DNA from: Balamuthia mandrillaris
Lineage: Eukaryota
Reading direction: 5' to 3'
NCBI GenBank assembly: GCA_031835245.2
Contig: JAVKOQ020000008.1
Coordinates: forward strand, 62,001-126,000
DNA length: 64,000 bases
A model generated the notes under the pieces. The model searched no databases. It saw only the letters and a program-made list of their open reading frames with translations, and had not been told where the DNA came from. Position numbers and translations under genes: made by a program. This document shows, in pieces, positions 14,519 through 35,948 of the stretch (position 1 is the first letter of the stretch; every line of letters starts with the position of its first letter).

Positions 14519-16749
14519 TTACCAGAATTTAATGGTGATGTTATAAACATGCAGAACAGAAGCGACGAGGGAGGCGATGAGGAGGTAGGCGGTCAAAACT
14601 GTGAGAGCGGTTGTGTCGCTGGCAAAGATGGTCTTCATTCCAAAGTTGACCACACCAACTAACAAGTTGCACTGCACAAGGTGGAAAAAAAAACGCAGGA
14701 TGAGAACCAAAGTGTGTGAGAGAAACAAAAGAAGGAAAAACGAACCAAAAGAAAGAAGAAAAGTTGATTGCGGTTGATTGCAGTGAACAAGTTGGTAGGT
14801 GAAGAAGGAGCGGAAACAAGAACAAGGTCCAGACAGAGCAAGGGCCATAACGTTTGTAGGTTGAGAGCCAAGGTGTAGAAGACATATGTTGCATTCACCT
14901 ACAAATACGTTTTGAGGTAAATATTAAAAGCAATATGGAAGAGAGGAAAGATAGATATAAAGCAGCACAATAGGCAAGAGGAAGCAGAAGGCAGAGAAGA
15001 AAGAAGTGGAAAAAAGGTACCATGCGTCGTGAACTTGGTTCGATAAAGTGTTCAGCAACGAGTGCTAACACCCAGAAGAGGAGGCTGAGTAGAAGGAGGC
15101 GTTGAAATACCGACCTCCACTCTTTCCGGCCGCGCCCTTCGGAACGCAACACAAAGTTACCCAATTGTGCGCCTATAAAGTATAACGCCAAGTAACCTTT
15201 GCCGAGGATATCAAAAAACGTGAACAACATGAAAAAGGCCAGAAAAACAGTGCCTGAAGTTAAATACCAATGGAACTGCAAAAGCCTTCTTTGTTTTGAT
15301 GAAACAAGTTGGTTCGTGGATGTTCCAGAATGTATTCTCTTAAACCCATGTTACTCAGGCAAAACTGATAGCCTTTTTTTTTTTTGTTGCAATGAGATAG
15401 TGCCAACTGCGAAAGAAGAGAAAGGGCGGAGAAAAGCGAACCAGTCAACAGAGCAAAGCCAAAAAGTGCACTATACGAGACTGGTAAACTTAGCATGCTT
15501 GCAAGAAACGAAATCAATGCAAGGGTAAAGAAAAAGTTCCAATGCACTCCATACTCGCTTACGTGTTCCTGTTATATGACAAATAAACAAAACGTAGCAG
15601 GCAGAAGAAGAATTAATATACCTGATAGTCCGTTCCTTTGACCATGGCGAGCCGAACAAAGCCAAGAATAAGCAGAGGCAGCGCTCTGTAGATGCATCGC
15701 AATAACCCATTTCGTTCTTTTCCTTCCCTATACGTCAGCGCTGCAGAGAGCACAAAGCAACCCACTCCTATGTCCATCTTTTCGTTGAATTCAAACGCAA
15801 TAAGAAGAAAAGAAGAAAAGAAAAGCAGCAAGCGAAGGATAAGAATAAGGACTATCAGCAGAAGTAGAAGATGAACTCAGAAACTACCAAGGACAAGCCA
15901 TAACTCTCGGTCTTGGCAAAGCGTCGAGGAAAGATCGGAAAGTCGACTGCTAGAATGCAAATGCAGGTAGCCAGCATCATCCCACTGCGATAATAAGTGA
16001 GAAAAGGCTTTCGTTGTTGCTGTAAAGGTGCCAAATATGCTGCTGACGTTGTTGTGTTATCATCAGTCTTCTTCACATTTCTCTCGTTGTAAGCGCTTTG
16101 AAAGAGTGGCTTCTGCGATACTCTTATTTGAAAGAGCATCAGAGTCATGAAGTAGAGAAATGAAGGAGAGAAGGTGAGAATGCGAGCAGAAAAGAGAAAT
16201 GAGAAGAGAAAAGAGAGAAGAGAGCAAGAGAGGAGAGACAAGAGAGAGAAGAGAGAGAAGAGAGAGAAGAGCGAGAAGAGCGAGAAGAGAGAAGAGAGAA
16301 GAGAGAGAAGAGAGAAGAGAGAGAAGAGAGAAGAGAGAGAAGAGAGAGAAGGTGAAGAAGAGAGGAGAAGAGAGCCGAGGAGTAAGAAAGAGCCGAGGAA
16401 GCAAAGGTGAGAACTCACTAACAGTTGAGAATAGGCAGCAAAGGCAAAAGTAACAGCAACCAAGGCGGCATAAATGAGGAGCATATGCTGTGGCAGCGTG
16501 AACACCAGCAACATGGGCATTACCAACAACGCAAAGTCCACCACGAAAGAGGACTGTCTCATCGTCGAGGCAACGACTCTGTGAGCCAACGTTGAGACCT
16601 ACCAATAACAAATTTTGTGAGAAAGATGAACAAAAGAGAAGAGATGGATGGAGTACAGGTAAAACAAGAAGCAGCAAAGCGAGCTCAAGAGCGGAGCCAC
16701 CTTCATGTCCACTCACAAACTGTTCTTTCTGCTGCTTGTAGCTGTCCAT
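14519..16749 (-). CDS. PIGW: GPI inositol acyltransferase PIG-W/GWT1, multi-exon
   Basis: [72 protein letters not shown] and PSSRRM are GWT1-family motifs. Confidence 0.95.
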
Positions 16750-16983: not shown

Positions 16984-18746
16984 ATGCATCCAGACAGCCC
17001 GGTGATAGAGCGTGTATCACGTTCGGCGCAGGAGTATCCCAGGTTGAAACGATGGGGGGCCTTCATGGACAGAGGCCGACGCGGAGAAGACCGCTTCGTC
17101 GTCTTGGAAAATATCGGGCGACCGTTCAGACGTCAAGCTCGTTACAATAGCTCCAGTCGTTTCGACCAACAACCAGAGCAGCTTTCAAAGGAAGAAGAAG
17201 AAGAAGAAGGGGTAGGGTCAACGAGTCAAGCTGTAGAGGAAGAAGGACCGTCGTACTTTGCTGTGATAGACGGCCACAGAGGGCAGCACTGTGCGGAATT
17301 TGTAAAGAACCGCTTGCACAGACATATTTTTTCTCCCGAGGCTCGTTCCCTCTTCTGGCTTCCTCCCAAAGAAGCCCCTGATGTTGAAAGGTTTTTTTTT
17401 TCATTTTTGTTTCTTGTTTTGTTTTGTTTCTGTTCTTTCTTGCATCATTGTTCTTGTTCTTGTTTGGGTTCTTCTTTTTCTTGTTCTTCTGCTGCGTTCT
17501 TGTTCCTCTTCTTGTTCTTCTTGTTCTTGTTCTTGTTCTTCTTCTTCTTCTTCTTCTTCTTCCCTCTTCTTCCCTCTTTGTTTCTTACTCTTCTCAAAAC
17601 AAAACAAATAATAGTATAACAGAGCACATCATTAAAGCCTTTGCCGAAGTGGAGGAGCTCTTCCTCTCTCGCGCCCGTCGCAAAGGCCACAAGAGCGGCT
17701 GCTGCGTGACGGCCGCCATCCTGGTCCGCTCTCACCTCTTCGTGGCCAACTTGGGCGACTGTCGAGCCGTGCTTGCCCAAAGGAACCACGGCTGGAAGGC
17801 CTTTGTGGCGGCGCAGTACACTCCCGTTTTCCTGACGGAGGACCATGAACCGATAGAGAACAAAGTGGAGAGGGAAAGGCTGGCAAAGTATGGCCCCGAG
17901 TTAGTAGACAAGGACGGGAGGTTGTTGGGAAAGATCTTAGTCTCCAGGGCGTTTGGAGATTATAGCTTGAAACAGATGAAGCCTCCTACACATCCTCCAG
18001 GTTTGTTGTTTCTTGTATTGTTGTTCTCCTTGTTGTTCTTGTTCTTTTGCTGCTTTGTTCTCTTCTTGTTCTTCTTCTTCTTGTTCTTGTTCTTCTTCTT
18101 CATGTTGTTAAGCTGCTAACATTCATACAACAAAACAGTACAGCCTCCTAAAACGTATGCAGGAAAGTTGCTCTACTGGTGGTTAGGCAAAGAAATACCC
18201 ACTCCTCCTCCTTCCCCCTCTCTACCTCCCTCTCCTTCTACAGCTTCTCCTCCCACCAACGAAGCCAAAGAGGAACAAGAGCAAGAAGCCTTCAAAGAAG
18301 TGGAGCTCAAAGAGCTGGATGCAGCAAAGATGAAAGCGGAGGAGCAGGTGCTCATCGCAGTGCCCGATGTGCGAGTGCACTGCTTGACGGAGCGAGACAA
18401 GTTCTTGGTATTGGCCAGCGATGGCTTGTGGGTCGTTCTCAGTGCTGGAACGGTGATTGATGCAGTTGCCGAACAATTGGAGGAAACGACAGCAGCAGCA
18501 ACCGCAAAGGAAGGAGAGAATGGTGCTAAGAAAAGTAATAAGGAGAAAGGTGCAGAGAGTAACAGCAGCAGTGAAGAGGAAGAAGAAGAAGAAGAAGAAA
18601 AAGATGAAGAAGAAGAAGCCAAGAAATCGGAAAAGATGTCCCTTAGGCAGAAAGAGATGGACGATGTGTGCGTGAACTTGGTGGCTGCAGCGAGGGCTCA
18701 GGAGTCACATGACGATGTTGCCGTCGTTTTGGCTTCTTTTGTGTAA
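16984..18746 (+). CDS. Protein phosphatase 2C (PPM family), 3 exons
   Basis: GRRGEDR, YFAVIDGHRG, SGCCVTAA, ANLGDCRAVL, TEDHEP, VSRAFGD, FLVLASDGLW, SHDDVAV. Confidence 0.93.
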
Positions 18747-18749
18747 ACT

Positions 18750-18794
<45 letters not shown>

Positions 18795-18911
18795 TTGCTT
18801 CTTCGGGTTTCGCAACAACACACGCCGGTAATATACATAAAACTTGGTATATAACGTAACTATAACATAACTTTTAGGCTCGTTTCGCTTAACAACAAAC
18901 AGCAACTGATT

Positions 18912-18961
<50 letters not shown>

Positions 18962-18968
18962 GAAAAAA

Positions 18969-19231
18969 ATGCAAATGGCAGAGGAGCTCGCAAGGCGAAG
19001 AGAACGGTTGCGGAGCATAGAGACCAAAGACCGAAGCGTGCCTGTCCTTACCGCCGGTACTTCAGCTCTTGTGAGTTTTCAAAGAAAGTAAAACTAGCTA
19101 AAAGCTTCTTCTTGCTTCAGACGTCTCGCCGGAAGTGAAGCGCCTCAGAGAACACATTAACGCCGTCAACCTCGAAAACTGGTACTCGCAGCTTCAGGTA
19201 TCCTAACTTCTGTTTTCTCTGTTGTTCCTTC

Positions 19232-19268
<37 letters not shown>

Positions 19269-20671
19269 CTCTCTTCTCGCTCTTCTCTCTTTCTCTCGTG
19301 TCTCTCTCTCTCTCTCTCTCTCTCGCTCTTCTCTCTTGTTTCTTTTCTCTTCGTTTAATATCACAAAGCAATACACGTTCGAGACAGCGTTCCTGAACTT
19401 GTCGTTGGAGGAGGCCCGTGCCATCTTAGCCGTTCACAAATGCAATAAAAGTCGCCAACCACAACAACAAGAACAAGGAGCTGAAGCTGCTGAACCACAA
19501 CTGGTGTTAGCATCATTGAAACAACGCATCGATGAAGCCTTGAAACCGTTCGTCATGGAGGAAGGAGCAGGAGGAGCGTTTGTTCGCCTCTCCTCACGTT
19601 CGCCGAAAGATGCCACCATCGCCGGCGAGAAGACCATGCAGCTCTTTGAAGAGGAACTGGAACGAATGGAAGAGAGAGAACAGAAGGAAGAAGGCCAAAG
19701 TGGCATGAACGTGAGAGACGATGAGAATTCGAGGTTGGTGGCTCTGCTTGTGGCTTCCACGAAAGTGATGATGGTTAGAACTGGCGACGAAGCCTTAAAG
19801 CTCTTCATTGTACGCATCTTTAGCTTTGACTTCTTGTTCATCGTTTCCTCTATTCTCTCTTGTTGGTGGGCTTCCTCTTTCTTAAGTTATGTTGTTTATT
19901 CTAGACAAGCGAACGAAGCTATGAAGACTTGGTGCTTGCGCTAGAGTTCCCAGAGAAATGGGACATGAAAGTCATCATCCGTGAATGGGTGGACATTCAT
20001 CCTTGTACGTGTTCTTCCTTTGTTGTTTACTGTAGTCCTGAGGGTAACTCACTGTTATTTTTTCTTTGGAACGTGTGCATCAGCGATGGAGTTTAGAGGA
20101 TTCGTCTACAACAAGAACCTTACAGCACTTTCACAGTACTTTTATGTCGCATTCTTTCCTCAACTGCAGCAGCACAAAGACTCCATCTGTGCCAAAATTC
20201 AAGGTTTTCTCTCGCTGTCTTCTCTCAGTTCTTTCGCCGCTTCCCCGGTCTTGTGGAGGTTCTTTACTTACTTGGTTCATTGCGCTTGCAGAGTGTTATG
20301 ACAAAGTGAAGGGCCTCATTCCAATTGATAACTTCATCATCGACTTTGCCATTCTTGATGATGGCCAAGTTCTCGTTATTGAACTCAATCCTTACCACAA
20401 GTACGAAACCTCTCCCTTCTCTTCACCTCTCTGCTTCTCTGCTTCATCTCTTCTCCTCACTCTTCCCTATTTACTCTTCTCTTTGCATTTCTCATCTTCA
20501 CCCAAAAGTGGAACAGATGCAAGTTTGTTTAGTTGGAAGACAGATCGCAGTGTCCTGGAGGGAGAGGCCCCCTTTGAGTTTCGCTTCCGGGAGGCTCCTT
20601 TCGACGTCAAAGCAACCATCATTGATCTCTGGAAAGATATTGTGCGTGCACCCTCCTCCACCTCTCCCTGA
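18969..20671 (+). CDS. Cdc123/R2K-clade ATP-grasp protein with N-terminal WH2-like motif, paralog 1 (multi-exon)
   Basis: Spliced product: M(Q)MAEELARRRERLRSIETKDRSVP...NLENWY...AFVRLSSRSPKDA...SERSYEDL...IIREWVDI...MEFRGFVY...ALSQY...IIDFAIL...IELNPY...DASLFSW. First intron 19057-19120. Confidence 0.85.
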
Positions 20672-20791
20672 ACCCATTCATTCGCGTGTTTCTCCTCCTA
20701 GGATCCCGTTCGTTTTATACTGTGCTGTAATAAACAACTCTTGAAGAAAAGAAAAAGAAAGAAAAGAAGAGAAAAGAAAAAGAAAAAGAAA

Positions 20792-20822
<31 letters not shown>

Positions 20823-20985
20823 GAAAAAGAAAAAGAAAAAGAAAAGAATCAATCGTTAGGATCTTCCAACCAAAAATCAAAAAATGAGATCTGTCATCAA
20901 GATTAGTCAATCAAAAATCAAAAAAACAGTTATGGGAATGCTTACAAATCAAAAACGAACGCAAAGGGAAACGAAAGCATAACAA

Positions 20986-22714
20986 ATGTCTCTGGTGGAA
21001 GAGCTGCAACGCAAGAAAGGAGGGCTGCGCACCGTGCAAGAACTCAAAGACCGAAGCAAGCCTCTTCTGGATGGTATCTTTTCTCTTTTTTTTTTTTCTA
21101 AAAAAAATTACCAAACAAACATGGACCTGTCTCGTTTTTTTGCTTGACATCGATGCCGCACCAGAGTGCAACAATAGCAGTAGGTCGGGAGTACAGGACT
21201 TTAAGAACAATATTCACGCCGTCAACCTTGAAAACTGGTATCCTCAGCTGAAGGTATGCATTTCTTTATTATTTTTTCTTTTTTTTCTTATTTTTTTTTA
21301 ATTCACTTTATTTTTTCTTTATTCGTTGTGTTATTTTTTCTTTATTCGTTGGTTGCGTTTAACAAAACAAAACAAAACACTAGGAATACACTTTTGAAAC
21401 AACCTTCTTGAACCTCTCGCAAGAGGAGGCTCGTGCTATAGTCTCCACTTATCAACAAAAACAAAGACAGGAATGCGGCAAAGAACAACCTGCAGCAGAA
21501 GAAGAAGAACAGCTCCATCTTCTATCTCAACTCAAAGAACGTATCAACGACGGAATCAAAGCATTTGTTGGTGGAGAAGGTGAAGACGGAGGAGCGTTTG
21601 TTCGGCTGTCCACTCGTTCGCCCAAGGACGCGACGATTGCAGGAGACAAGACGATGAGACTGTTTGAAGAAGAGCTGGAGCGAATGGAAAAGGAAGAACA
21701 AGTGGAGAACGCGAGAGAGGATGAGAACGCGAGGTTGGTGGCGTTGATTGTAGCTTCCACCAAAGCCATGATGGTTCGCAGCGGGGAGGAAGCGTTACAG
21801 CTCATTACTGTTTGTATCTTTGTGCTTTGTTTCTACATTCTTCTTGTTCTTCTCCGTGTCTTCTTCTTCTTCTTCTTCTTCTTCTTCTTGTTTTTCTTTT
21901 CTTCTTCTTCTTCTTGTTCTTCTTCTTCTTCTCCTTCTTCTTCTTCTCCTTCTTTTGGCTAACGTAGTAATGGCCAGACAAGCGAACGAAGCCACGAAGA
22001 TCTGTTATTGGCATTGGAGTTTCCTGAAGAGTGGGACATGAAAGTGATCATTAGGAAATGGGTCAACATTCATCCCTGTAAGTTCTCTCTCTCTCTCTCT
22101 CTCTGTTTTTCGTTCCTGTTACTAACGAATTACCAGCAATGGAGTTTAGAGGTTTCGTTTGCCATAAAAAGTTTACAGCGTTGTCTCAATACTTTCACAT
22201 TGCTTACTTTCCTCAACTGAAGCAACAAAGAAACTCCATCCTTGCCAACATTACTGGTTTGGTTTTTTTTTATCACACACTTTGTTTTTTCTTTTCTGAT
22301 AACGTGTTCTTCCAATGATAGAATGCTATGCCAAGGTCCAGGATCTCATTCCAGTGGATAGCTTTATTGTGGACTTTGCTGTTTTGAACGATGGTCAAGT
22401 TCTGGTTATCGAACTGAATCCCTTCCATAACTATGAAGGATGGTTCGTCTTTCCTTCTTTGCGTTGTTTCTCTTTCTTTCCTCTTCTTCTTTGTTGGGTG
22501 CTGTTCGTTTCTTGCTTCTGTTCTGTTTTTTCTTACAATCTTTTTTGCCGCACAATTAAACAGCGGAACGGATGCTGGCCTGTTTAACTGGGCGCTTGAC
22601 CGTAAAATAGTGGATGGGGAGGCCCCCTTCGAGTTTCGTGTCAGGGAGGAGGCGTTCGACGTGAAACAGAACCTTATCGGCCTTTGGAGAGACATTGTTC
22701 GCTTCCCAAAATGA
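20986..22714 (+). CDS. Cdc123/R2K-clade ATP-grasp protein with N-terminal WH2-like motif, paralog 2 (multi-exon)
   Basis: MSLVEELQRKKGGLRTVQELKDRSKP...NLENWY...FVRLSTRSPKDA...MEFRGFV...IVDFAVL...IELNPF...DAGLFNW. Intron positions largely match paralog 1. Confidence 0.85.
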
Positions 22715-22984: not shown

Positions 22985-23672
22985 ATTAATAATTTTTGTA
23001 GACATTCTGCACCGCAGCAAAGAAAGGATGGAAGACGAAGGTCGTCCGGTTCGTTCGACCGTCAACAAGATTGCATGAATCGTCAGCCGAGCGGGGGTAC
23101 CGATGCTTCCTCTCCGCTGGTTTTTTCCTGTAATTTTTTTTATTTATTTTGGCTTGCTTTTCAAACATGTCACAAAACCCCAATTTATTTATTGTCTTTA
23201 TAACAATTTATTTAGTGGATATCTGTGCATTCATGGTTATAGACCATTCTGCCCTCTTTTGTTGCTGACTCCGGTGAAGCTCATACAGAAAAAGGACCGA
23301 GCAGTTCCTTCTTGCTTTTCAAACATGTCTCGCATTCCCAGAACCACTTTGGGCTTGGCATCAGAGAGCAAGGGAAATGAATTGAAGGAAGAAGGGATGG
23401 GAGTGGCCCGTGCCCCGTCCGGAGGGAGAAACGCGGCAAGACAAAAAGGAAAAAGGGAGATATATTGACCTCGTGACTCCACCGCATAGATCCATGGTTC
23501 TGTTGGTGCTTTAGTAATAAGCAACAGATGTTTGTGACCCAACCTATATTACTATACTTGTGTCTCCAAACAGGTATTTAAACGGACTCGAATTGTCTGC
23601 TTCTTCCTTTCCATCACCGACAAACAACCAACCAAACAAACAAACTGAACTGAACTGAACCACATAAACGAA

Positions 23673-25342
23673 ATGCAAACCAAAAGTTTGTTGATGCTGT
23701 TTGCCGGAGCTTTGCTCCTGTGCTGCATGGCTGCCTCCGCGGTCGCAGAAGAAGTCGACTTTGGCGACATTTATGGTTCGTTTGTTCTTTCACTTTCTCC
23801 TGCTTCCCTTTCCACTAACTTAAACCCATGTCTAGCTCGCTCGAGAGAACTTCCTGAGGAAAGAGAGGTGCTGGAGAGCATTACCTTCCAAATCCATCCC
23901 AACCCCAAAGGCATGATGCAACGCCGCACCGTCACCAACTCCACTTTTAACAGCGGCCACTCCCTGACCCTCTCCTTCAAGGCCCTGCAGCGTGAGTTCT
24001 CCGCCTCGCTGCACCACAACGCCGAAGTCTTCCACCCTCAGGCCGTGGTCTCCATTCTCTCCGAGGGCGAGCTGGTGGAGTCCTACGCTCCCGAGAGCAA
24101 TGCCTACCTCGGCGAGGCCACCATCGATGGACGTGAACGAGCCTCTGTCTCTGCCGTGCTGGTGGATCGGGAGAAGGGCATCTTCCACATGAGCATCATG
24201 TCGGAGGAAGAGAGCGGTGATAGCTATGTGGTGGAGCCGACCTACCTTCACCCCACCCTGTCCAAGAGGAGCAGCGAGGACTCGGTGGTGGACATGTTGG
24301 GCAACAACATGGTGGTCTTCAAGGACAACCTCTCCGAGCTCAGCACCATCAATCCTCCTTCTCACGACCAGGACGAACATGCCGAAAGAGAAGAGCAGGC
24401 TGCTATCTCCTGTGGAACAGTTGCTGACGATGTCAGCCAAGACGACAACGAGGAGCAAGAAGGAGAAGAGGTGTTTGGAGATGCCAGCGCTACTCGCAGC
24501 TGCCCTCCCACCCGGACCAGCTATCTCCTCATGGGCGTGGCCACGGATAACCAGTACGTTCGCAAGGCAGGCGGCTCCACCGGCACCCGCAACACCGTGA
24601 CCTACATCTTCAACACCATGCAGGGCCACTACTACCGTGCCGTCCGCAACAAGCCGGTCCTCAAGTCCTTGGTCATCAACACCAGCCCCTCTTCCTCCTC
24701 CTTCTCCTCCAGCTACAACACCAACAGCTGCCCCTCCGACGTGCAGACCCGATTGACCCCCTTCTGCAACTGGAGGACCAAGCAGACCGACCGCTCCATC
24801 GGCTTGTGGCACCTGCTCTCCGGCTGCCTGCCCGACCGCAGCGGCGTGGCCGGCAGGGCCTACTACAGCGCGGTGTGCAGGTACACCACCAGGGGATGCG
24901 GCATCACCGGCTACATGGGCGGCAATGCCCGTTGGGTCATCCCTGCCCATGAGATCGGCCACAACTTTGGAGCTCGCCATTCCAGCAACATCATGGCCGT
25001 ACGTTCCTCTTCTCCTCCTCCGTTTCGTTCTGTTTGCTGTTTGTTAATCCCTTCTTTGTGGTGGCTGATAACCAGGCCTCGGTGAACAGCAGAGCAACGG
25101 CATTCTCCTCCACATCGGTGCGTGAGATGTGCAGCTACACCTTCAGCAACAGCTACCGCATGGCCTGCCTGGTGAACAGTCTGCCCAGCGGCCTGCCCTC
25201 CATCCCTGGCGTTGGCGGCGACAACGACGACGACTGTGAATGCAGGACCACAGCTTCCAACCACAACAACAAGGCCGGCTCTGAGGAGGAGTCCTCTTCT
25301 GCTGCGCCAACCGTTGGACTCATGCACCAAACTTTCTTCTAA
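23673..25342 (+). CDS. Secreted reprolysin/ADAM-type (M12B) zinc metalloprotease
   Basis: Signal peptide, pro-domain with cysteine-switch-like SCGT, zinc motif HEIGHNFGARH, Met-turn (NIMA). Introns 23776-23835 and 24999-25075. Confidence 0.88.
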
Positions 25343-26553: not shown

Positions 26554-27747
26554 AATACATTTGGTAATGTGTTGAACGGCAGCAGATGCTCTTTCAGAAG
26601 TTACTTTGAACTTAAGTTGTTGTACGTCCTCTGATGATATCTTGACCACCCATTCTCGCCCTTCCTTTCCTTCCTGTAACATAAAACAACCAATCAAAAT
26701 GTGTTTAAACAAAGTAACAGAAACTCGAAGGAGAGAAAGAGAACCTCTTCTAATATCCGGACAAGGTCAGCTATCAAGTTGTCTCGATTGAGAATAGTCT
26801 CGATGGGAACTACAATGAGGCCTCCAGAGGGAAACAAGACGTTTTGCGGCGGAGGCGGTAGGAATTGTTTCGTTTTGCAGCAGTTTTCCAGATAGGTCAT
26901 GTCTCGTATAAACAATACCCAGGGGTTCAATCGACACTCTAATATACCTGGTATCTCGCAAATCAGCTTGTGTAACACTTTGCTATTCACCTGAAAGCAA
27001 ACGAGACAAGGAGAGTCAGAGAAAAAGAGCGAGAAAACAGGAGACAAGAGAGGAGATGGAAAAAGTGTTTAGGCACGTACAATAATTAAGTTGATGTCAG
27101 CAGAGACAAGCTCGTTTTCATGCTTGTAAATGGCACCACTCGTTTTAGCCAGAAACGAAATGATGTTGGTGGCCAAGTTCGAATCGGCTATGCCGCCAGG
27201 ATCCGTTGGAGAGAATCCCACAAGGGCGTACTTCACTCCTGGCATAAATCGTTGCTGTTCTTTTGTTGAAAGACTGCCAACTTGTTGTTGCTGTTGTGGA
27301 AGAAGAGCTGCCATCGCGGAGGAGGTGGGTTTGACTTTTGGCTTTGGTTGTAACACGCAAGAAAGTTTTTTCTTATCGTGAGAACTGGGCTCTTGGTCGC
27401 TGTCCAAATAAGCTGGATAGATATACAGATTGCTAGTTGGGCTCCCAAAACACCATATCTTTGGTTGCATTTAAAACAAATGAGTTAACGCAGAACTAAA
27501 AACAAACAAAGAAAACACAAGAAACGCACCGAACGGTTATCCCAGAGAAGAGCGCTAAAGTACTCAAAGCTGCGTCGCTCACGTCCCGGAAGAACTTGCA
27601 ATGGGATGAGTGGATTGGCAGCATGCGGAGAGTTAAATGGCAACGATGCTGCTTTCTCGCCGGTAAGCATGCCTTGCGGCCAGTCACGTGCGTACTTTTG
27701 GCTATCATTGCATAAAAGTTACGGTCGTGAGCTCTAGCAGACTGAAG

Positions 27748-27791
<44 letters not shown>

Positions 27792-29976
27792 ATACCAACG
27801 GCTCTCATCGCTAGGATTGCCTCGAAAAGAGACGGTGATCTCACCGACTGGTTTGCCCTCAAAGCTGATAGTGCCTCTCCAGAGTATCACTGTTTTCGTT
27901 TGTTGTTTGCTGACCGATGTCTTTGTTGTAATTGGAGGAGCATAAAATGAATCGGTTATCGTTGTTGCATTTCCGTTGTTGCTGTTATTGTTGAGAGTTA
28001 ATGTAGATCCAGTTTCGCCCAAAATACTACCCAACACATCGACTTTGCTGCTCGAAGAAGATGTAGAGGTAGTTGGTGTTAATTTAGAATTGGTAGGAGA
28101 AGTAGCCGTTTGTGTAGTCGAACGAAGAGCGAAGTCCAAAGCCAAAGCATTTGCGTTGAGATCGTTGGTTGGAGCATGATAAAAGTCAACAACTGGTAAA
28201 CCGTTATTCGTGGATGATGCTGTAGTTAGCGGTTTAGCGTCTTCTCGACTTGCTGTGCTAGCCATCCAATCCCATCCTCCAGTTTCTTCGTTCTTAAGCC
28301 CATCTTTCTGCACCACATCAACAGAAAAAGGGTCGAATGAAGCAGCAGAAGAAGCATTTAGTGATGACGCAGTAGAATGATTATGATCGGAAGCGTGAAT
28401 GAAAGGAGAGACTAAAGTAGGAACCCGTTTGTTGAGCTGCATGTCGCACTGGTCGCAAAACCAATCGCCTTCCGGTATTTCGTCCAAAGGAGGAAAGATG
28501 CAGTACGTGTGATAGGCTTTGTTGCAGTTCTCCCCATCGCAGAGTAACATGTTTTCTGGATCGTCTTCACGACCACAACATTCGCATTTGGTGTCATCTT
28601 CTTCATCGTCTTCATTCTCTTCTCCGTTTTCTTCAGTTTCCTCCTCCTCTTCCTCTTCCTCTTCTGCGTAAGAGTTTAATCGTGCGCTTCTTCTTGTTCG
28701 AAGGCTTGTTCGGCGTTCCTCTTTCTTTATGCCTGTAGAAACCTGATTGTTTGGTGTTGCTGTTTCGGTTTGTTTTCGGAGCTTTTGTCGAAACTCAGCA
28801 GCCAGTTTTCTTCTTGCTGCTTCCGCTTTCTTTCTGGTCATACTCTTTTGAATCCGTTGTCTCAATCCAGCTTTTCTTCCGGTTTCCATCACCGTGCCAT
28901 CTTCTGAGTTATTGTCTTTGCGATTTGTTCTCTTTTTCCTCGTTTTCGTTTCGTGTTCTTTTGCTTCCTCTTGATTTTCTTTCTCGCTTACACTATTATT
29001 AGAGTTGCCGTTTTCTTGCCGTGATCCACTCGATCTTCTGGAACGTGACCGAGACGTAATCTTTGCATAAATGCGTGCTTCGTCATCAGCATCTTCTTCG
29101 CTTTCAGTGCCATCTCCATTTACTTCTTCCTCTTCCTCCTCTTCCTTCGGTGGCATAAACTCTTCGTCTTCCATTGAATTATTTTCTTCCACTTCGTCTT
29201 GTTCTTCATCTTCTTCCTCCTCTTGCTCTTCTGTTTGTTCTGTTTCTTGCTTTTCCTTTCCTTCTGCATTTTCTGCTTTTTTCTGGCAGCAACGAGGGCA
29301 AAACCAGTCTCCTTCTGGCACGGCCTCCAAAGGAGGATCCAAGCAGAACATGTGCCATCCGCTGTCACAACCATCGCACAGCAACATCTTTTCTGCTTCC
29401 GTATCTTTTTTACATATTTCACAAAGCTTATGAAGGAAGAGAGAATGGAGAAGAGAAAGAGTTAGCTTTAAACATTTGATACCAGTAAGGTTCTACGTAC
29501 CTCATCTTCCTCTTCCTCCTCCTCCTCCTCTTCTTCTCTCCGTTTCTTTTTGGACCTGGCTGCCGCTTGCTTTGAGCGTGTGCTGCTCCTTCGCGCACCC
29601 CCTTTGTTTTTAGCGCCGCCCTGAGTCCTCGAACTTCTTCTGCTCGGCCTTTTTCTTCTAGAGAGCTCTCGTTCCTCCTCTTCCTCCTCCGCCTCTTGCT
29701 CCTCCTCCTCTATCCATCGCTTACGCTTGCTCTGTGTCTGGCCTCCTGTTTGTTTGGTGTTTGTATTTAAAAAAATGTATTAGTATTTTGATCAACAAAA
29801 AAAAACGTAGCGAGACACTTCATCAAACAACAAAAAAAAGTTTTTTGGTTACCTCTACTCTTGGAACGGGTGGAGTAAGGATTCCTTGTGGAGGAAGCAG
29901 AAGATCCACCACCACGGGCCGAAGACGATGCTGAAGCAGTTTGGTCAATCCCATTTTCTTCAGCAGTGTTGCTCAT
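25787..29976 (-). CDS. Double-PHD-finger protein with C-terminal SPOC + DomII + PIN-like module (TASOR/Chp1-like); 3' end uncertain
   Basis: PHD1 CEIC...LLCDGCDSGWHMFCLDPPL...GDWFCPRC and PHD2 CECC...LLCDGENCNKAYHTYC...WFCDQC. SPOC-like ILWRGTI...DWPQG...FEYFSALL...LYIYP. C-terminal LIIVNS...ICEIPGI...LFPSGGLIV...REWVVKI...YRHIILLSD. PHDs are certain; the C-terminal assignment is by recall. Confidence 0.8.
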
Positions 29977-30821: not shown

Positions 30822-32960
30822 TCTCTCTTCTCTCTTCGTTCTCTCTTTTCCACTTCGCGGCTTTGCTTCTCTTCTCTCGTTCTCAAACCTGTGTTGGTGA
30901 GGCCCATAAGAAGTCCAGCATAGTTGGGCGCAATATCCAAGTGATTCACCTGAAAACCAGAACTGCATAGCCCGCTGAAACCAGTGGAAATGGTCATGAA
31001 TGCCACGCTAACCGGCACGGAGTGGCAGTAACCAGCTCCTAAGAGCGTTCCCCCTGCCACAACGAAAGCTAGGGTCTCGAATATCTTTCTCACAATTGTA
31101 GTACTGAATATTTTGCCTTGTTTTAAAAAGAAGATTGAAACAAGAAATGAGAAGAGGAACAACAAAAAAAATACGAAGAACAAGCGAAAGAAGGAAAAGA
31201 AGGAAAAGAAGGAGAAGGAACAACAATAAAAATACCATTACCACCAAGAAGAAGAAGAAAAAGAAGAAGAAGAAGGAGAAGAAGAAGAAGAACAACAACA
31301 ACAACAAAAATGAGAAGGAACGTACGAGTAATGAGAAAGTCGGCCACAATGCCAGAAAGAATCCATGCGAAACTAATTGCAACGTAAGGAAGAACGGCGA
31401 TGAACCCTGCGTGCTTGATATCGAAGCCGAGGACTTCTTTAAGGTACTTTGGCAACCATGTAAGCATTGTATAAAAGGCCTATTAAAAGTACATTAACAA
31501 CGTTAAAGAAGAAATAGAAAAGAAGAAAAAGAACAAGAAGAATTACCCAATTGTTGGCAAAATGGTTTGTAAGAATAGCCCAGAAGGGAAGACACATGAG
31601 AATCTTGCGCCATGGCAATTGCAACAGAGATTCTTTCTTTGGTGGAGGAAGAGAGAACACAATATGCTCATATTCCTTTTTTGAAGAATAAAAATAAGGG
31701 AAAAGGACAGCAACAAAGCAGGAGAGAGAAGACGCACTTTTTGAGAAATAGTGGAATGGACCGCTGGAGAGTCGGCAATAAAGTATGCCCAAGGCACAAA
31801 CCACAGAATGCCTACAATGCCATACACATAAAATACAGCGGGCCAACCACCCAAAAAGCTAGAGTCCACAAGAGCTCCCGAACTGGGAAAGGCAATGATG
31901 GTTCCTACGTACGCTCCGCTGTAACACAGAGAGACCATGCGAGAACGTTCGGAGGGGGGTGCCCATTCGCCAAACATGGCGTGCATCGCGGGATAGGTGA
32001 CGCCCTCTCCAATTCCTTCTGCAACACGCAACGCTATGACAAACCTTCAAAAATTGTTGGGATGAGAACGAAGCAGAGAGCGGAGGAGAAAAGAGAGGAG
32101 GGGCAGTCAACCCTATGTGGAGCTTTGCAGCAATTGGTGTGAGAAGTGTCAGCAGAGCAGTACAAAGAATGCCGATACCATAAACCCACTTGCCGCCAAA
32201 TCGCGAAGCGAACCATCCGCCAGGTATCTGTCATAAAACAGTAACACTATGTCAGTATTATGAACATTTGTCGTCTTCTCCTGTTCATAGTCATAGTGTT
32301 CTGTTCCTTCTTGCTCCATTGAAAACGAAAAGAACCGAAAAGTTACCTGCGTAAGAATGTAGCCAATGAAGAAAGAGGAGAGAACAAAGCCTTGGTTGAA
32401 AGAGCTCCATTTATACTCTTCTCCCATGGGATCAATTGTTATGCTCATTATGACTCGTAAAACTGTTGGAGACAAAAAAATGCCAAACGTAAGAAGAAGA
32501 ACAAGAAAGAAACGAAGAAGAAGAAGAAGAAGAAGAAGAAGAAGAACAAGAACAAGAACAAGAACAAGAACAAGAACAAGAGGAAGAAAAAGAACAAGAA
32601 GAACGAGAACGAGAAGAAGACGAAAGAAATCTGAAAACAAACAAGAACGGAATGACAAACAAGAAAGTGAAGGGCAGCAGTACTGTAGACGTTCAGGAAC
32701 CCAAAGAAACCGAGCAGGACCAGTATGTACCGTTTGGGGAAGTAGTACCGGCCTTGCGCTGGTCTCACTTTGCCATCCCCTTTCCCGGCTGTTGTGCCGG
32801 CCAACAACTCGTCGGTGCCTTCCTCGTCCGCGCTGTAGAGGGTAGCGGAGGAAGTGGCCTCCTCCTCCCCCTCCACCGACAAGGAATAGTACGGTGGTGG
32901 TTGGGGTGTTCTGGCCGCATCCTCATCATGGAACAAAAGCGGAGAGGTCTCCTGCGCCAT
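30566..32960 (-). CDS. MFS anion:cation symporter (SLC17/sialin-like), multi-exon
   Basis: [86 protein letters not shown], last exon ATIPGIVSP...WQIVFWIAA...GSGKRQI*. N-terminal ETSPLL. Confidence 0.92.
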
Positions 32961-33558: not shown

Positions 33559-35076
33559 TTACGTGTAAATATGCTTTGGTGCCGTCGAGTTGCCACCTGC
33601 ATCGTTTTCAAGTCCGTTCACGTCCAAAGTCTCGTTCGTTTTCAAAGTTCCCGTTGTTGTGAAGCTCCTGCGGCCAAAGGTTCCCTCAGGGGTGAGCGTA
33701 GCCGGCTCTCCTTTCTCCGCTTGCTTCCCGTTTGGTTGAGCGTGGGCTCCATAGAAGTGTGCGACCAAGCCCCTTCCGCCGTTGCTTTGCGGTTGCGATT
33801 GCGCAAGGGTTTGTTGTGATGAAGAAGAAGTGCTGCTGTTGTTGGCGTCCTGGATCCGGTGGGTTGCTTGAAGCGGTGAGCTGCGTAACTGCTCTTCTTC
33901 CTCCTTCCAGCTGGTCATGATAGCAGAGGCAGCGGTGTCATGGGATTTGAAGGCGGGAGAAGAGGTGGCGGATGGTGATGAAGAGGAAGAAGGGGAGGAA
34001 GGGGAGTGAAAGCTAGCGTTTGCCTCTGCAAAAAGTTTTTCTCGTGTGTCCTTGTCCAAGGTGTGGACGGCGTTGTGGCGCTCCAGAAAGGCGAGGTCCT
34101 CATCGACCTCCTGCTCTTCGATCGTGTAATTCACTTTCAGCAACGGCGTAGCCGCGGTGGCGCCTGTCCCTGTCACCTTTCGCCGCTCTTCGAGTCTTCT
34201 GTCCTCTTCCTCTTCCTCCTCCTCCTCCTCCTCCTCCTCTGCTTCACCACCGCCGCTGTGCACTCCGTTTGGAAGGAGCTTGGCCGCCGCGTCGTGTGCT
34301 GTGCCTTCCTCTTCCTCTGTGCCTGCTTCTCTCTCCCTAACAACCTCCATACCATCCGCCGCCTCCTCTTCCTCTGCCTGCTCCTTCTTTATCTTATTCC
34401 TCGCAGCACCCATCCCAACCAACGTTGCACCAGAAGCACCCTCAGCACCACCAGAGGACAAGCTAAAGCATGGTCGCTTGGGCGGGGCTCCCTTGCAGCC
34501 CATGCGCCTCCACTTCCTGGCCCTGTAGAGCCACCACTGCTCCTCCACCATCTTTTGCTTCTTCCGGAGGCGCAGCTTGAGCTTGTCCTGGAGGACGTCT
34601 ATGGCATGGCCGTACTCCTCCTCGGCCTGCTGCAGCTGGGCCTGGAAGACGTGCAGCACGTTCTCCTGGCTGTACTGCCGCCACTTCTCGATGCTCCACA
34701 GCTTCTTGCGCTGGAGCTCCGCCAGGTGGGCCACCTTTTGGAGGTATCCCGCGTGCGTGCCCTCCATGATGGCCTGCAGCTCCGCCTGATGTTGCTCCAT
34801 TGGGCTGCTGGTCTCGTGGTGGTGGTGGTCGGTGTTGTCGTTGCCAGTGGCGGCGGGTGGGTGGTGTGGGTTGGAGGAGGAGGAGGAGGAGGCGGCAGCA
34901 GCACTCGCTTCAGCTCCCTCAGCCCCACCACCACCCCCCATGCTGGGCGAGGAGAGGGCAGGAGGTTGGATGATGGCGGAAGGCTTGGAAGGAGGGGGAG
35001 AGGAGGAGGTGGCGGGTCCACCGCCATCCCCTCCTTCCGCCGAGTTGGTAACTTGAGTCCCTTCTTCTCCTTCCAT
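33559..35076 (-). CDS. Sds3/BRMS1-like Sin3-HDAC complex subunit; 3' end may be spliced further
   Basis: ELQAIMEGTHAGYLQKVAHL...QAEEEY...LQDKL coiled coil and later YTIEEQEVDEDLAFL motif are typical of the Sds3 family. Confidence 0.75.
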   Translation of the reverse strand: MEGEEGTQVTNSAEGGDGGGPATSSSPPPSKPSAIIQPPALSSPSMGGGGGAEGAEASAAAASSSSSSNPHHPPAATGNDNTDHHHHETSSPMEQHQAELQAIMEGTHAGYLQKVAHLAELQRKKLWSIEKWRQYSQENVLHVFQAQLQQAEEEYGHAIDVLQDKLKLRLRKKQKMVEEQWWLYRARKWRRMGCKGAPPKRPCFSLSSGGAEGASGATLVGMGAARNKIKKEQAEEEEAADGMEVVREREAGTEEEEGTAHDAAAKLLPNGVHSGGGEAEEEEEEEEEEEEDRRLEERRKVTGTGATAATPLLKVNYTIEEQEVDEDLAFLERHNAVHTLDKDTREKLFAEANASFHSPSSPSSSSSPSATSSPAFKSHDTAASAIMTSWKEEEEQLRSSPLQATHRIQDANNSSTSSSSQQTLAQSQPQSNGGRGLVAHFYGAHAQPNGKQAEKGEPATLTPEGTFGRRSFTTTGTLKTNETLDVNGLENDAGGNSTAPKHIYT

Positions 35077-35948
35077 AGTTATCGAAAAGACTTTTTGTTT
35101 TGTTGTTTTCTGTTTTTTTTTTTTCTATTCCGAAATTATTTTTTTGCTTTTTAGATAATTTTATTTATTATTATTTATTTTTATTTTTCTTTTCTTTCGG
35201 TTCTTTTTAAATGTTTGGATGTTCTCTTCTCTTATACTCTTATTTTTTTTTAAACTTTAAAATAAACAAATAGACAAAAACAAGTTAAGCGGAGATATGT
35301 TATGGAACAAAAAGAAAAGTGTGGATTATGGTTTTTTTTTTTCCAACAACAAACAAAGGAGCGGTTTATTTTGGTTGCTTTGTTTTGTTGTTTTTGTGGG
35401 TGACACCGTCCAATCGATAACAAGAAGAAGTCAACTTGCAAGTTCACCGTTTCATTTATTTTTGTTTGGTGTGTTCCCAACTATCACGTACCAACATGGA
35501 AGAGAGACAGAGAGCTTGACCGAGTGAGTGCTGCTGGGTGAGCTCTATTGTCAAAGAAAAAAACGCATGGGGGGGGTGGAGAAAAGAAGAGAGGCATAGA
35601 AGCGGTTCATCGCTGTGCTCTCTCCTCCTGCTGGGTCCCGTGTGTAGTGAGTTTCAGCTTTGATTTCTGATTGAGAGTTTAAAGTTTGATTTTTCATTAG
35701 TCACGAAATTTGTCTTGCAATCGTTTTTCATAAATTCTCCTTAATGCAAATCACTGGTTTTTTCGATTTTCCATTGGCCGCTATTCTTTTAGCCAATTCA
35801 TTTTCAGATATTCGATCGATCTCGCCTAAAGGAAAGAACATTTTTAAGGAGGCGCGTAACGAACAAGAAGAGGTCTCTAGCACTGCTTGGGAAGTCCGAC
35901 TCCTGCGTGCCCGCTAATGCGGAGATTGTCAACCATCGCGAACCCCGA

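What the first reader, a model, noticed from the sequence alone, without database searches (positions are those of the whole stretch)
18969..22714. Tandem R2K/Cdc123-type ATP-grasp enzymes led by a WH2/actobindin-like actin-binding motif
Seen: exon 1 of each paralog encodes MAEELARRRERLRSIETKDRSVP and MSLVEELQRKKGGLRTVQELKDRSKP, a short helix + LRxx + DRSxP. Known: verprolin/WIP WH2 motifs (LKKAETNDRSAP-like) and amoeba actobindin (LKHAETVDKSAP-like) have this signature and bind G-actin. The body has R2K ATP-grasp motifs (RSPKDA, EFRGFV, IELNP) that differ from canonical Cdc123 (PKLNWSAPKD, IDFNP). R2K enzymes are predicted peptide ligases with unknown substrates. Inference: these may be actin-recruited or actin-activated ligases that modify actin or its partners, analogous to TTL-family ATP-grasps acting on tubulin. 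The motif sits on its own exon and is retained in both diverged copies.
Basis: partly seen in the sequence, partly recalled or inferred. Interest (0 to 1): 0.8.

Follow-up and report, generated by a model that had tools for sequence, protein, structure and literature searches.

The report
WH2-led Cdc123-like ATP-grasp gene pair
Two neighbouring genes of the amoeba Balamuthia mandrillaris encode Cdc123-like ATP-grasp enzymes that begin with a WH2-type motif, which is predicted to bind actin monomers and would make actin the likely target of an enzyme family whose substrate is unknown.

Summary
Window 18969-20671 and 20986-22714 (+) are two tandem seven-exon paralogues, 61% identical, with introns at matching positions. 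Gene B's model equals the NCBI Balamuthia mandrillaris protein 'Cell division cycle protein 123'.

Both pass Pfam D123. Gene B folds as Cdc123 (pLDDT 91.8), and the ATP-grasp active-site residues are kept.

Exon 1 of each encodes the quoted peptide. Spliced contigs join exons 1 and 2 of gene B.

The motif is conserved. An iterative search seeded only with gene B's first 30 residues pulls in the N-termini of 57 of 195 homologues, and none of 1265 shuffled N-termini hit. Named carriers are Acanthamoeba, Luapelamoeba, Dracoamoeba, Flabellula, Anaeramoeba and the foraminifer Nonionella.

A profile of 32 such N-termini finds, as its best solved chains, the actin-bound WH2 peptides of WIP (E 1.9e-7) and MIM (5.4e-6).

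Burroughs et al. 2015 guessed that amoeboid Cdc123 paralogues modify the actin cytoskeleton. I found no paper noting the WH2 fusion.

Best reading: an actin-monomer-tethered ATP-grasp, likely a ligase (inferred).

The parts
18969..20671 (+). Gene A: WH2-led Cdc123-like ATP-grasp, 365 aa. Exons 18969-19056, 19121-19197, 19369-19809, 19905-20004, 20084-20203, 20292-20400, 20509-20671 (stop included)
   Evidence: Hand-built GT-AG model. It is 87% identical to NCBI protein P0001 from another Balamuthia assembly, which uses the same exon 1-2 join. RNA reads of run X3 cover exons 5-7 and dip in introns 5 and 6. There is no RNA evidence for exons 1-4.
18975..19043 (+). Gene A WH2-like motif, residues 3-25 (MAEELARRRERLRSIETKDRSVP), wholly inside exon 1
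   Evidence: Aligns with the family N-terminal motif. The leave-Balamuthia-out profile gives only E 0.065, 7.7 bits.
19597..19614 (+). Gene A RSPKDA (second basic residue of the R2K signature, ATP phosphate contact)
   Evidence: The column is K in 129 of 130 homologues.
20089..20106 (+). Gene A EFRGFV (invariant E and R of the first strand of the kinase-like half)
   Evidence: E and R are each invariant in 130 of 130.
20378..20392 (+). Gene A IELNP (ExN metal-binding motif)
   Evidence: E is kept in 129 of 130 and N in 130 of 130.
20986..22714 (+). Gene B: WH2-led Cdc123-like ATP-grasp, 364 aa. Exons 20986-21073, 21165-21253, 21384-21809, 21978-22077, 22137-22256, 22322-22442, 22564-22714 (stop included)
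   Evidence: The model equals P0002 exactly. Pfam D123 81.4 bits against a cut-off of 24. AF2 pLDDT 91.8. The ten best Foldseek matches are all Cdc123. Contigs of run X1 join exon 1 to 2 and exon 2 to 3.
20992..21063 (+). Gene B WH2-like motif, residues 3-26 (LVEELQRKKGGLRTVQELKDRSKP), wholly inside exon 1
   Evidence: Leave-Balamuthia-out profile E 5.4e-4. It seeded the jackhmmer run that converged on 57 of 195 N-termini. AF2 gives helix 3-11 followed by an unstructured stretch 12-35.
21615..21632 (+). Gene B RSPKDA
22142..22159 (+). Gene B EFRGFV
22408..22422 (+). Gene B IELNP

Best explanation
Two tandem seven-exon paralogues encode divergent Cdc123-family (R2K.1) ATP-grasp proteins whose first exon carries a WIP/MIM-type WH2 motif. 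That motif is predicted to dock the enzyme on monomeric actin, so that the ATP-grasp body would likely ligate an amino acid or short peptide to actin or to a protein held on it.

Shown:
- the gene structures;
- membership of the D123 family, the fold and the intact ATP-grasp active site;
- a short N-terminal helix followed by an unstructured LR(T/S)(V/I)...DRSxP stretch about 10 residues ahead of the folded body;
- conservation of this N-terminus across deep branches of the family in amoeboid eukaryotes;
- its significant profile match to WH2 peptides solved on actin.

Inferred:
- the helix sits in the cleft between actin subdomains 1 and 3, and the LKK-like part runs towards the pointed end, as in solved WH2 complexes;
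- the short tether then holds the catalytic cleft next to the bound monomer;
- the reaction is an ATP-dependent carboxylate-amine ligation, like that of TTL and TTLL enzymes on tubulin.
For: - Family and fold. Pfam D123 is above its cut-off (P0002 81.4 bits, P0001 61.6, cut-off 24). The whole-family profile hits human and S. pombe Cdc123 structures at E 3e-36 and 6e-29. The AF2 model has pLDDT 91.8 and pTM 0.87. The ten best Foldseek matches are all Cdc123, followed by Ddl, RimK and LysX ligases.
- Active site in 130 homologues: K/R133 130, K140 129, R227 130, E237 130, R239 130, D292 130, E305 129, N307 130. These correspond to the features listed for the R2K clade (PMC4431377, section 5).
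- WH2. The profile of 32 N-terminal 30-mers has as best PDB hits 2a41_C (WIP, E 1.9e-7, 33.8 bits over 25 positions), 2d1k_C (MIM, 5.4e-6) and 3m3n_W (N-WASP, 0.0048).
- Conservation without WH2 knowledge. jackhmmer from gene B residues 1-30 converges on 57 of 195 N-termini. 54 of 55 significant profile hits start within the first 40 residues, and 0 of 1265 shuffled N-termini hit.
- Co-inheritance. On body-only trees the label needs 17-18 changes against 43.7 for shuffled labels; 0 of 500 shuffles are as low.
- Named carriers are amoeboid organisms of three supergroups.
- In transcriptome-derived homologues the motif and the body lie in one ORF.
- Canonical Cdc123 starts right at the WY motif and has no such leader.
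Against: - The Pfam WH2 model (28 positions, cut-off 23.1) finds nothing in the Balamuthia proteins. In 59 homologues it gives only 3 sub-threshold hits of 11.5-13.2 bits.
- Neither Balamuthia protein fits the strict WASP-family WH2 pattern of PMC3298513. Only 3 of 197 N-termini do.
- The second basic residue of LKK is T or S here.
- Gene A alone scores E 0.065. A single-sequence search of gene A's N-terminus against the PDB found nothing.
- The unselected whole-length profile retrieved no WH2 chain at E <= 1.
- The 32 N-termini were picked by eye and by a WH2-inspired pattern. 27 of the 32 are also in the jackhmmer set, which used no such pattern.
- About half of the family lacks the motif (66 of 130), so the body works without it.
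- No ligase activity has been shown for any Cdc123-family protein. Canonical Cdc123 is described as an eIF2 assembly chaperone and ATPase (abstracts of PMC8844851 and PMC12860950).
Confidence: 0.35

Rival explanations
1. The WH2 binds actin, but the ATP-grasp body would act as an ATP-driven assembly chaperone rather than a ligase, as canonical Cdc123 does for eIF2. It would hold an actin monomer and hand it to, or assemble it with, a partner.
For: The only function tested in this family is chaperone-like. Cdc123 assembles eIF2, and ATP hydrolysis may regulate that step (abstracts of PMC8844851 and PMC12860950). Solved Cdc123 structures carry a bound client domain (entries 4zgn, 4zgq, 8phd). 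The WH2 evidence is the same as for the main reading.
Against: The family keeps the classical ExN motif and the arginine typical of amide-forming ATP-grasp ligases. Actin folding and handover already have dedicated machinery (CCT, prefoldin, profilin, CAP; my own knowledge). No client-binding surface was examined here.
Confidence: 0.2
2. The WH2 only places or regulates the enzyme, either at actin-rich cortex or by sensing the pool of free monomers as RPEL proteins do. The substrate would be another protein, for example a translation GTPase related to eIF2-gamma such as eEF1A, which bundles actin in amoebae.
For: Canonical Cdc123 binds domain III of eIF2-gamma (PDB titles). Other family members carry other targeting modules instead of the WH2: P0092 has an N-terminal SH3 domain (E 1.3e-9) and P0149 a ZZ finger. 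Half of the family has no WH2. This fits a swappable address label on a common catalytic body.
Against: The tether between the motif and the body is short. The motif ends at residue 26 and the first body helix starts at 36. This favours action on the bound monomer itself. The eEF1A idea rests on recalled knowledge only, and nothing here tests it.
Confidence: 0.2
3. The N-terminal peptide is a family-specific leader that merely resembles WH2 and does not bind actin. It could be an autoinhibitory or partner-binding helix for something else.
For: No Pfam WH2 hit. The strict WH2 pattern is unmet, the helix is short, and many members show h-x3-h-x2-h rather than hh-x2-h. Short basic motifs can converge.
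Against: E 1.9e-7 and 5.4e-6 against two different WH2 peptides solved on actin, with the match running over helix, LKKT and DRSAP. The carriers are amoeboid organisms.
Confidence: 0.15

Closest known systems
Canonical Cdc123 (D123, R2K.1 ATP-grasp; eIF2 assembly factor; PDB 4ZGN-4ZGQ, 8PHD)
   Same: Same Pfam family, same fold and same active-site layout.
   Different: Only 16-20% identity to the solved proteins. FV(K/R)LSxRSPKDA and IELNP stand in place of PKLNWSxP(K/R)DA and ID(F/I)NP. The genes are multi-copy: this tandem pair plus at least P0202 and P0192/P0217 in Balamuthia. Canonical Cdc123 has no N-terminal leader.
'Second set' of fast-evolving Cdc123 paralogues of amoeboid eukaryotes, Legionella and giant viruses (Burroughs, Zhang, Aravind 2015, PMC4431377)
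   Same: Multi-copy, divergent R2K.1 members in Acanthamoeba and other amoebae. The authors proposed that they might modify the actin cytoskeleton by analogy with tubulin ligases (passages read).
   Different: The main text never mentions WH2, verprolin, thymosin or WASP (0 occurrences), so the proposal had no sequence evidence behind it. I did not place Legionella or giant-virus members in my trees. The paper's Additional file 1 was not opened and could show the N-termini.
WH2 domains of WIP/verprolin and MIM (PDB 2A41, 2D1K)
   Same: A short helix followed by LKKT-x-T-x-DRSAP. The family consensus reads sllseLskvK-LKKTetkDrSaP against ALLSDISKGKKLKKTVTNDRSAP of WIP.
   Different: The motif sits at the very N-terminus of an enzyme. 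In the Balamuthia pair the linker is two residues longer and LKK is LRT or LRS. The Pfam model does not reach its cut-off.
TTL / TTLL tubulin ligases
   Same: ATP-grasp enzymes that add amino acids to a cytoskeletal protein. This is the working analogy for the mechanism.
   Different: They belong to another ATP-grasp family. Pfam TTL gives only a stray hit of E 0.16 on one homologue, P0004. They recognise tubulin through their own domains, not through a short linear motif. The analogy is by function, not by membership.
Actin cross-linking domain (ACD) of Vibrio MARTX/VgrG1 toxins (recalled, not examined here)
   Same: An ATP-dependent carboxylate-amine ligase whose substrate is monomeric actin, which shows that such chemistry on actin exists.
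   Different: Glutamine-synthetase-like fold, a bacterial toxin, no WH2. No sequence or fold link was seen here.

Membership tests
Cdc123 / D123 (Pfam PF07065; R2K.1 ATP-grasp) | Pfam D123 score above the gathering cut-off | tested here: met
   P0002 (gene B) 81.4 bits and P0001 (gene A allele) 61.6 bits against a cut-off of 24. Single exons give partial hits.
Cdc123 / D123 (Pfam PF07065; R2K.1 ATP-grasp) | Cdc123-type ATP-grasp fold | tested here: met
   AF2 pLDDT 91.8. Foldseek ranks 1-10 are all Cdc123, E 8e-15, target TM 0.80.
Cdc123 / D123 (Pfam PF07065; R2K.1 ATP-grasp) | R2K signature: a basic residue in RAGNYA strand 2 plus a second K/R in the next loop, an acidic residue in strand 4, and an E/DxN motif (PMC4431377, section 5) | tested here: met
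   R133 (K or R in 130 of 130), K140 (129 of 130), D292 (130 of 130), E305-x-N307 (129 and 130 of 130). The mapping onto human K104, D233 and D246xN248 is by the alignment.
Cdc123 / D123 (Pfam PF07065; R2K.1 ATP-grasp) | Orthology to the single-copy eIF2 assembly factor (binds eIF2-gamma domain III) | tested here: not met
   Divergent motifs, 16-20% identity to solved Cdc123, a tandem pair plus further paralogues in the same species. eIF2-gamma binding itself cannot be tested here. The genes are family members but not the canonical orthologue.
WH2 domain (Pfam PF02205) | Pfam WH2 score above the gathering cut-off (23.1 bits) | tested here: not met
   No hit at E <= 10 on either exon-1 peptide or on the whole proteins. 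0 of 59 homologues reach the cut-off, and 3 of 59 give 11.5-13.2 bits over the LKK...DRSA half of the model.
WH2 domain (Pfam PF02205) | A helix of about 10 residues with hydrophobic h-h-x-x-h, a variable linker, then L-[KR]-[KR]-[VTA] (pattern from PMC3298513) | tested here: inconclusive
   Gene B has L3-V4-E-E-L7, a 6-residue linker and L14-R-T-V. Gene A has M3-A4-E-E-L7 and L14-R-S-I. AF2 gives helix 3-11. The strict pattern is unmet in both and is met in 3 of 197 N-termini. A relaxed pattern is met in 36 of 197, against 1.96 expected from shuffles.
WH2 domain (Pfam PF02205) | Significant sequence similarity to WH2 peptides solved in complex with actin | tested here: met
   At family level only. 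The profile of 32 N-termini gives WIP 2a41_C E 1.9e-7, MIM 2d1k_C E 5.4e-6 and N-WASP 3m3n_W E 0.0048. Gene B joins that profile at E 5.4e-4 and gene A at E 0.065.
WH2 domain (Pfam PF02205) | Binds monomeric actin | not testable with these tools
   Complex prediction was busy or its queue was full, and nothing was folded.
TTL / TTLL (Pfam PF03133) | Pfam TTL match | tested here: not met
   No TTL hit on P0001 or P0002. There is one stray hit of E 0.16 on P0004. The likeness is of function only.

The most novel reading that the evidence does not exclude
These genes belong to a widespread family of WH2-guided ATP-grasp ligases that write amino-acid tags onto actin. This would be an 'actin code' counterpart of the tubulin tyrosination, glutamylation and glycylation enzymes. 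It would be shared by amoeboid cells of Amoebozoa, Rhizaria and Metamonada, and built on a Cdc123-like body that also occurs, without the WH2, in Asgard archaea.
Probability: 0.25. Interest if true: 0.9.

Novelty: new variant of a known kind. Interest (0 to 1): 0.7.

Why it matters
No ATP-grasp enzyme is known to act on actin, and no enzymatic product is known for any Cdc123-family protein. In 2015 it was guessed, from phyletic pattern alone, that the extra Cdc123 copies of amoebae act on the actin cytoskeleton.

A conserved WH2 leader gives that guess its first sequence-level support. It also turns the guess into a simple bench test: does the peptide bind G-actin, and does actin gain mass or stimulate ATP turnover?

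A positive result would name a substrate for an orphan enzyme family and reveal a new kind of actin modification in amoeboid cells. Those cells include opportunistic pathogens such as Balamuthia and Acanthamoeba. A negative result would show that WIP-like motifs can arise for other uses.

Tried and rejected
- Complex prediction of residues 1-45 with an actin (P0255, from a metagenome contig) and ATP: the tool was busy or its queue was full at every allowed try, and nothing was folded. This gives no evidence either way.
- Single-sequence search of gene A's N-terminus against the PDB: 0 hits.
- Whole-length family profile against the PDB: Cdc123 only, no WH2 chain at E <= 1.
- The whole genome of the window is not held. 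I therefore could not look for the canonical Cdc123 or for the actin genes of this organism.
- RNA: no RNA holder was listed for the stretch. Of three raw RNA runs with the same species label, one laid 0 reads, one 2 and one 7, and only on the 3' half of gene A and the 3' end of gene B. Gene A's exon 1-2 join is therefore not seen in RNA.
- The search for related loci with alignments A2 and A3 in prokaryotic genomes failed for lack of a conserved stretch. With the single protein P0010 it found one Helarchaeota locus.
- Seven loci from viral contigs encode short R2K relatives (22-23% identity), and none has the N-terminal motif.
- Earlier findings of this scan: none for this genome.
- Protein Atlas: D123 clusters only, nothing new.
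- My first pattern-based count (30 full, 60 core, 45 none and 18 fragments, of 153) was too loose in its 'core' class. I replaced it with the aligned-column count and the jackhmmer set.
- Neighbouring genes (RasGEF, GWT1, PP2C, a reprolysin-like protease, a PHD protein, MFS, Sds3-like) give no functional lead.
- Literature searches: 'Cdc123'+'WH2' found 0 papers. 'ATP-grasp'+'WH2' found 3, with 1 listed and unrelated. 'WH2'+'D123' found 3 unrelated papers. 'Cdc123'+'actin'+'amoeb' found 5, of which only Burroughs 2015 is relevant.
Full report
WHAT IS THERE

The stretch 18969-22714 holds two genes on the + strand. I built both models by hand from open frames and GT-AG sites.
- Gene A has exons 18969-19056, 19121-19197, 19369-19809, 19905-20004, 20084-20203, 20292-20400 and 20509-20671. 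It encodes 365 aa.
- Gene B has exons 20986-21073, 21165-21253, 21384-21809, 21978-22077, 22137-22256, 22322-22442 and 22564-22714. It encodes 364 aa.

The six introns lie at matching positions in both genes, and the products are 61% identical. On a body-only tree the two are each other's nearest relatives (support 95-96). Their next relative is a Dracoamoeba/Stereomyxa transcript (support 99). This is a lineage-specific tandem duplication.

A search with exon 3 found four database proteins. P0002 is identical to my gene B model and is named by NCBI 'Cell division cycle protein 123 [Balamuthia mandrillaris]'. P0001 is 87% identical to gene A, lies on a 57-kb contig of another assembly, and uses the same exon 1-2 join. 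The organism is thus Balamuthia mandrillaris.

RNA EVIDENCE

Two contigs of run X1 skip 21073|21165 (GT..AG). This is exactly intron 1 of gene B. A third contig passes from exon 2 to exon 3. X1's RNA label is a guess, but a form without the intron argues for cDNA.

For gene A, a few RNA-seq reads of X3 cover exons 5-7 and the 3' end, and they dip in introns 5 and 6. Nothing covers exons 1-4. The exon 1-2 join of gene A is therefore supported only by the NCBI model, by the frame and by homology.

THE BODY

Both proteins pass Pfam D123 (81.4 and 61.6 bits, cut-off 24). Gene B also passes R2K_2 and R2K_3.

A search of 1.84 billion representatives with P0002 gave 2669 relatives at E <= 1e-3 and 250 at E <= 1e-30. 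I aligned 130 full-length ones out of the best 150. I left out 23 fragments before aligning.

With that alignment the AF2 model of gene B has pLDDT 91.8 and pTM 0.87. Its ten best Foldseek matches in the PDB are all Cdc123 (E 8e-15, target TM 0.80). D-Ala-D-Ala ligases, RimK and LysX/ArgX follow. The family profile hits human Cdc123 at E 3.1e-36 and S. pombe Cdc123 at about 6e-29.

The residues that define the R2K ATP-grasp clade (PMC4431377, section 5, read) are kept in the 130 homologues:
- K or R at 133 in 130;
- K140 in 129;
- R227, E237, R239 and D292 in 130 each;
- E305 in 129 and N307 in 130.

The solved proteins read FPKLNWSAPRDA / LIDFNPF (human) and PKLNWSTPKDA / LIDINPF (S. pombe). 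Here the motifs are FVRLS(S/T)RSPKDA and VIELNP.

Identity to the solved Cdc123 proteins is 16-20%. Balamuthia has further paralogues, P0202 and P0192/P0217. These genes are therefore members of the family but not the canonical eIF2 assembly factor.

THE N-TERMINAL MOTIF

In the AF2 model residues 3-11 form a helix (pLDDT about 77). Residues 12-35 are unstructured (58-68), and the folded body starts at 36. Canonical Cdc123 has no such leader: the human chain aligns from the WY motif onward.

Many homologues start in the same way. Examples are MSITQKLSHVKLKKVETDDRSAP (P0068), MAFLKDLGKVKLKAATTNDKSGP (P0046), MSLLEELARKKEGLSRVETADKSGP (P0056) and MDLAQQFGAVKLKKAAGGTHDRSAP (P0162, Acanthamoeba castellanii ACA1_389360).

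Counts:
- At the aligned columns, 64 of 130 have an LKK-type tetrapeptide, and 33 of 130 also have D-x-S.
- A jackhmmer run used no knowledge of WH2. It was seeded with gene B residues 1-30 and run against the first 45 residues of 195 full-length homologues. It converged on 57 of them. That set includes gene B itself, its allele P0005, P0001 and three near-duplicate cluster members.
- A profile built without the Balamuthia rows scores gene B at E 5.4e-4, its allele at 1.6e-5, Acanthamoeba at 5e-8 and the further Balamuthia paralogue P0202 at 0.0025. Gene A scores only 0.065.
- 54 of 55 significant hits of that profile start in the first 40 residues. The exception, P0181, carries the motif at 127-146 behind an N-terminal extension.
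- 0 of 1265 shuffled N-termini hit.

On trees made from the body alone, the presence of the motif needs 17 changes (FastTree) or 18 (IQ-TREE). Shuffled labels need 43.7 on average, and 0 of 500 shuffles are as low. Clades of 24 and 20 rows carry it in 21 and 17 members. The leader has therefore been inherited together with the enzyme over deep divergence.

IS IT A WH2?

Evidence for: a profile of 32 N-terminal 30-mers was searched against all PDB chains. The best hits are:
- 2a41_C, the WIP WH2 peptide (E 1.9e-7, 33.8 bits, profile positions 2-26);
- 2d1k_C, the MIM WH2 peptide (E 5.4e-6);
- 3m3n_W, N-WASP (E 0.0048), and two Cordon-bleu/MIM chimeric peptides further down.

The de-novo trefoil proteins in between match only a repeated TRDRSDP. 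I picked the 32 rows by eye and with a WH2-inspired pattern, which is a bias. However, 27 of them are also in the jackhmmer set, which used no such pattern.

Evidence against:
- Pfam's WH2 model gives nothing on the Balamuthia peptides or whole proteins.
- In 59 homologues it gives only three sub-threshold hits, all over the LKK...DRSA half of the model.
- The strict WASP-family pattern quoted in PMC3298513 (passages read) is met by 3 of 197 N-termini and by neither Balamuthia protein. A relaxed helix-plus-LKK pattern is met by 36 of 197, against 1.96 expected.
- The whole-length profile found no WH2 chain.

My reading is that this is a short WIP/MIM-type WH2. The LKKT...DRSxP half is strong and the helix is minimal. 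The two Balamuthia copies are among the more derived members: they have a longer linker and LRT/LRS for LKK.

WHO HAS IT

Named carriers are Balamuthia, Acanthamoeba castellanii, Luapelamoeba hula, Dracoamoeba/Stereomyxa and Flabellula baltica (all Amoebozoa), Anaeramoeba ignava (Metamonada) and Nonionella stella (Foraminifera). Several of these are assembled transcripts in which the leader and the body form one ORF.

Most other carriers are unnamed metagenome proteins. Seven viral-contig relatives lack the motif. Homologues labelled as Asgard archaea also lack it.

HOW IT LIKELY WORKS

Shown: a WH2-like leader sits about 10 residues ahead of an ATP-grasp body whose active site is complete.

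Inferred from what is known of WH2 (PMC3298513):
- the helix binds the cleft between actin subdomains 1 and 3;
- the LKK part points towards the pointed end;
- the short tether would therefore hold the catalytic cleft against the bound monomer.

I commit to an ATP-dependent ligation on actin or on a protein bound to it, by analogy with TTL and TTLL enzymes, at about 0.35.

The rivals are:
- an ATP-driven chaperone, as described for canonical Cdc123 (abstracts of PMC8844851 and PMC12860950): 0.2;
- a localising or monomer-sensing leader with another substrate: 0.2;
- a look-alike leader that does not bind actin: 0.15.

In favour of a swappable address label, one relative has an SH3 domain in place of the leader and another has a ZZ finger.

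WHAT IS KNOWN

Burroughs, Zhang and Aravind (2015, PMC4431377) defined the R2K clade. They noted fast-evolving, multi-copy Cdc123 paralogues in Entamoeba, Acanthamoeba and Naegleria. They suggested that these might modify actin-cytoskeleton proteins as TTL-like enzymes modify tubulin (passages read). Their main text contains no 'WH2', 'verprolin', 'thymosin' or 'WASP'. I did not open their Additional file 1.

Full-text searches found the following:
- Cdc123+WH2: 0 papers;
- ATP-grasp+WH2: 3 papers, 1 listed and unrelated;
- WH2+D123: 3 unrelated papers;
- Cdc123+actin+amoeb: only the 2015 paper is relevant.

None of the precomputed Pfam lists of 120 relatives shows PF02205. The enzyme family and the actin idea are known. 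The WH2 fusion appears to be unreported.

VERDICT

It has significant but not textbook support for WH2. Actin binding and catalysis remain untested. I rate the finding a new variant of a known kind, with interest 0.7.

Noticed in passing
L124:3001-3882 (Helarchaeota MAG, 844-kb contig); proteins P0010, P0087, P0166, P0187: Intronless homologues in genomes labelled as Asgard archaea (Helarchaeota, Promethearchaeota, Hodarchaeota, Heimdallarchaeota) are 35-43% identical to the Balamuthia proteins. They are the nearest motif-less neighbours of the Balamuthia clade on the tree, and they start directly at the N-I-E-N-W-Y motif. This divergent Cdc123-like body may be old in the archaeal-eukaryote lineage, or it may have been transferred.
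   Followed up: partly
P0092 residues 28-81; P0149 residues 375-410: Other members of the family carry other add-on domains: an N-terminal SH3 domain (E 1.3e-9) in P0092 and a C-terminal ZZ zinc finger in P0149.
   Followed up: partly
P0176, P0188, P0043, P0053, P0078, P0240, P0253 and others (first 45 residues): A different conserved leader marks another subclade that includes Physarum: F-x-S-P-H-W-L-x-D-E-E-I-x-x-L-G-V-x-x-x-x-V-E-x-Y-R-R-x-x-Y-Q-x-x-F-G-I-x-x-W-Y. Its meaning is unknown.
   Followed up: no
P0046, P0061, P0104, P0115, P0129, P0131, P0136 (residues about 22-32): In one large WH2-bearing clade the motif is followed by a conserved P-K-[LV]-T-G-[YF], which is absent from the Balamuthia pair.
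   Followed up: no
P0001 and P0005 (57-kb contig of another Balamuthia assembly) against window 18969-22714: The second assembly's copies are 87% (gene A) and about 92% (gene B) identical in protein, so they come from a divergent haplotype or strain. The P0001 model reads through intron 5 and mis-splices intron 6, which gives a false C-terminus. Exons 1-2 of gene A are identical between the two, while exon 3 differs at 7% of residues.
   Followed up: partly
window 20991 (run X1): One contig matches gene B from the start codon onward but has 42 different letters upstream. This is an alternative or allelic 5' leader.
   Followed up: no
window 18750-18795, 18917-18960, 19222-19330, 20740-20845, 21860-21950: Long (CT)n/(GA)n, (AAAGA)n and (CTT)n microsatellites fill the intergenic spacers and introns around both genes.
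   Followed up: no
window 12897-14167 (+), 14898-15350 (-), 18120-18746 (+), 23649-25082 (+), 27708-29492 (-), 31546-32046 (-), 33562-35124 (-): The neighbours are ordinary nuclear genes: RasGEF, GWT1, a PP2C phosphatase with an acidic tail that ends just upstream of gene A, a reprolysin-like M12 metalloprotease, a PHD-finger protein, an MFS transporter and an Sds3-like protein.
   Followed up: partly
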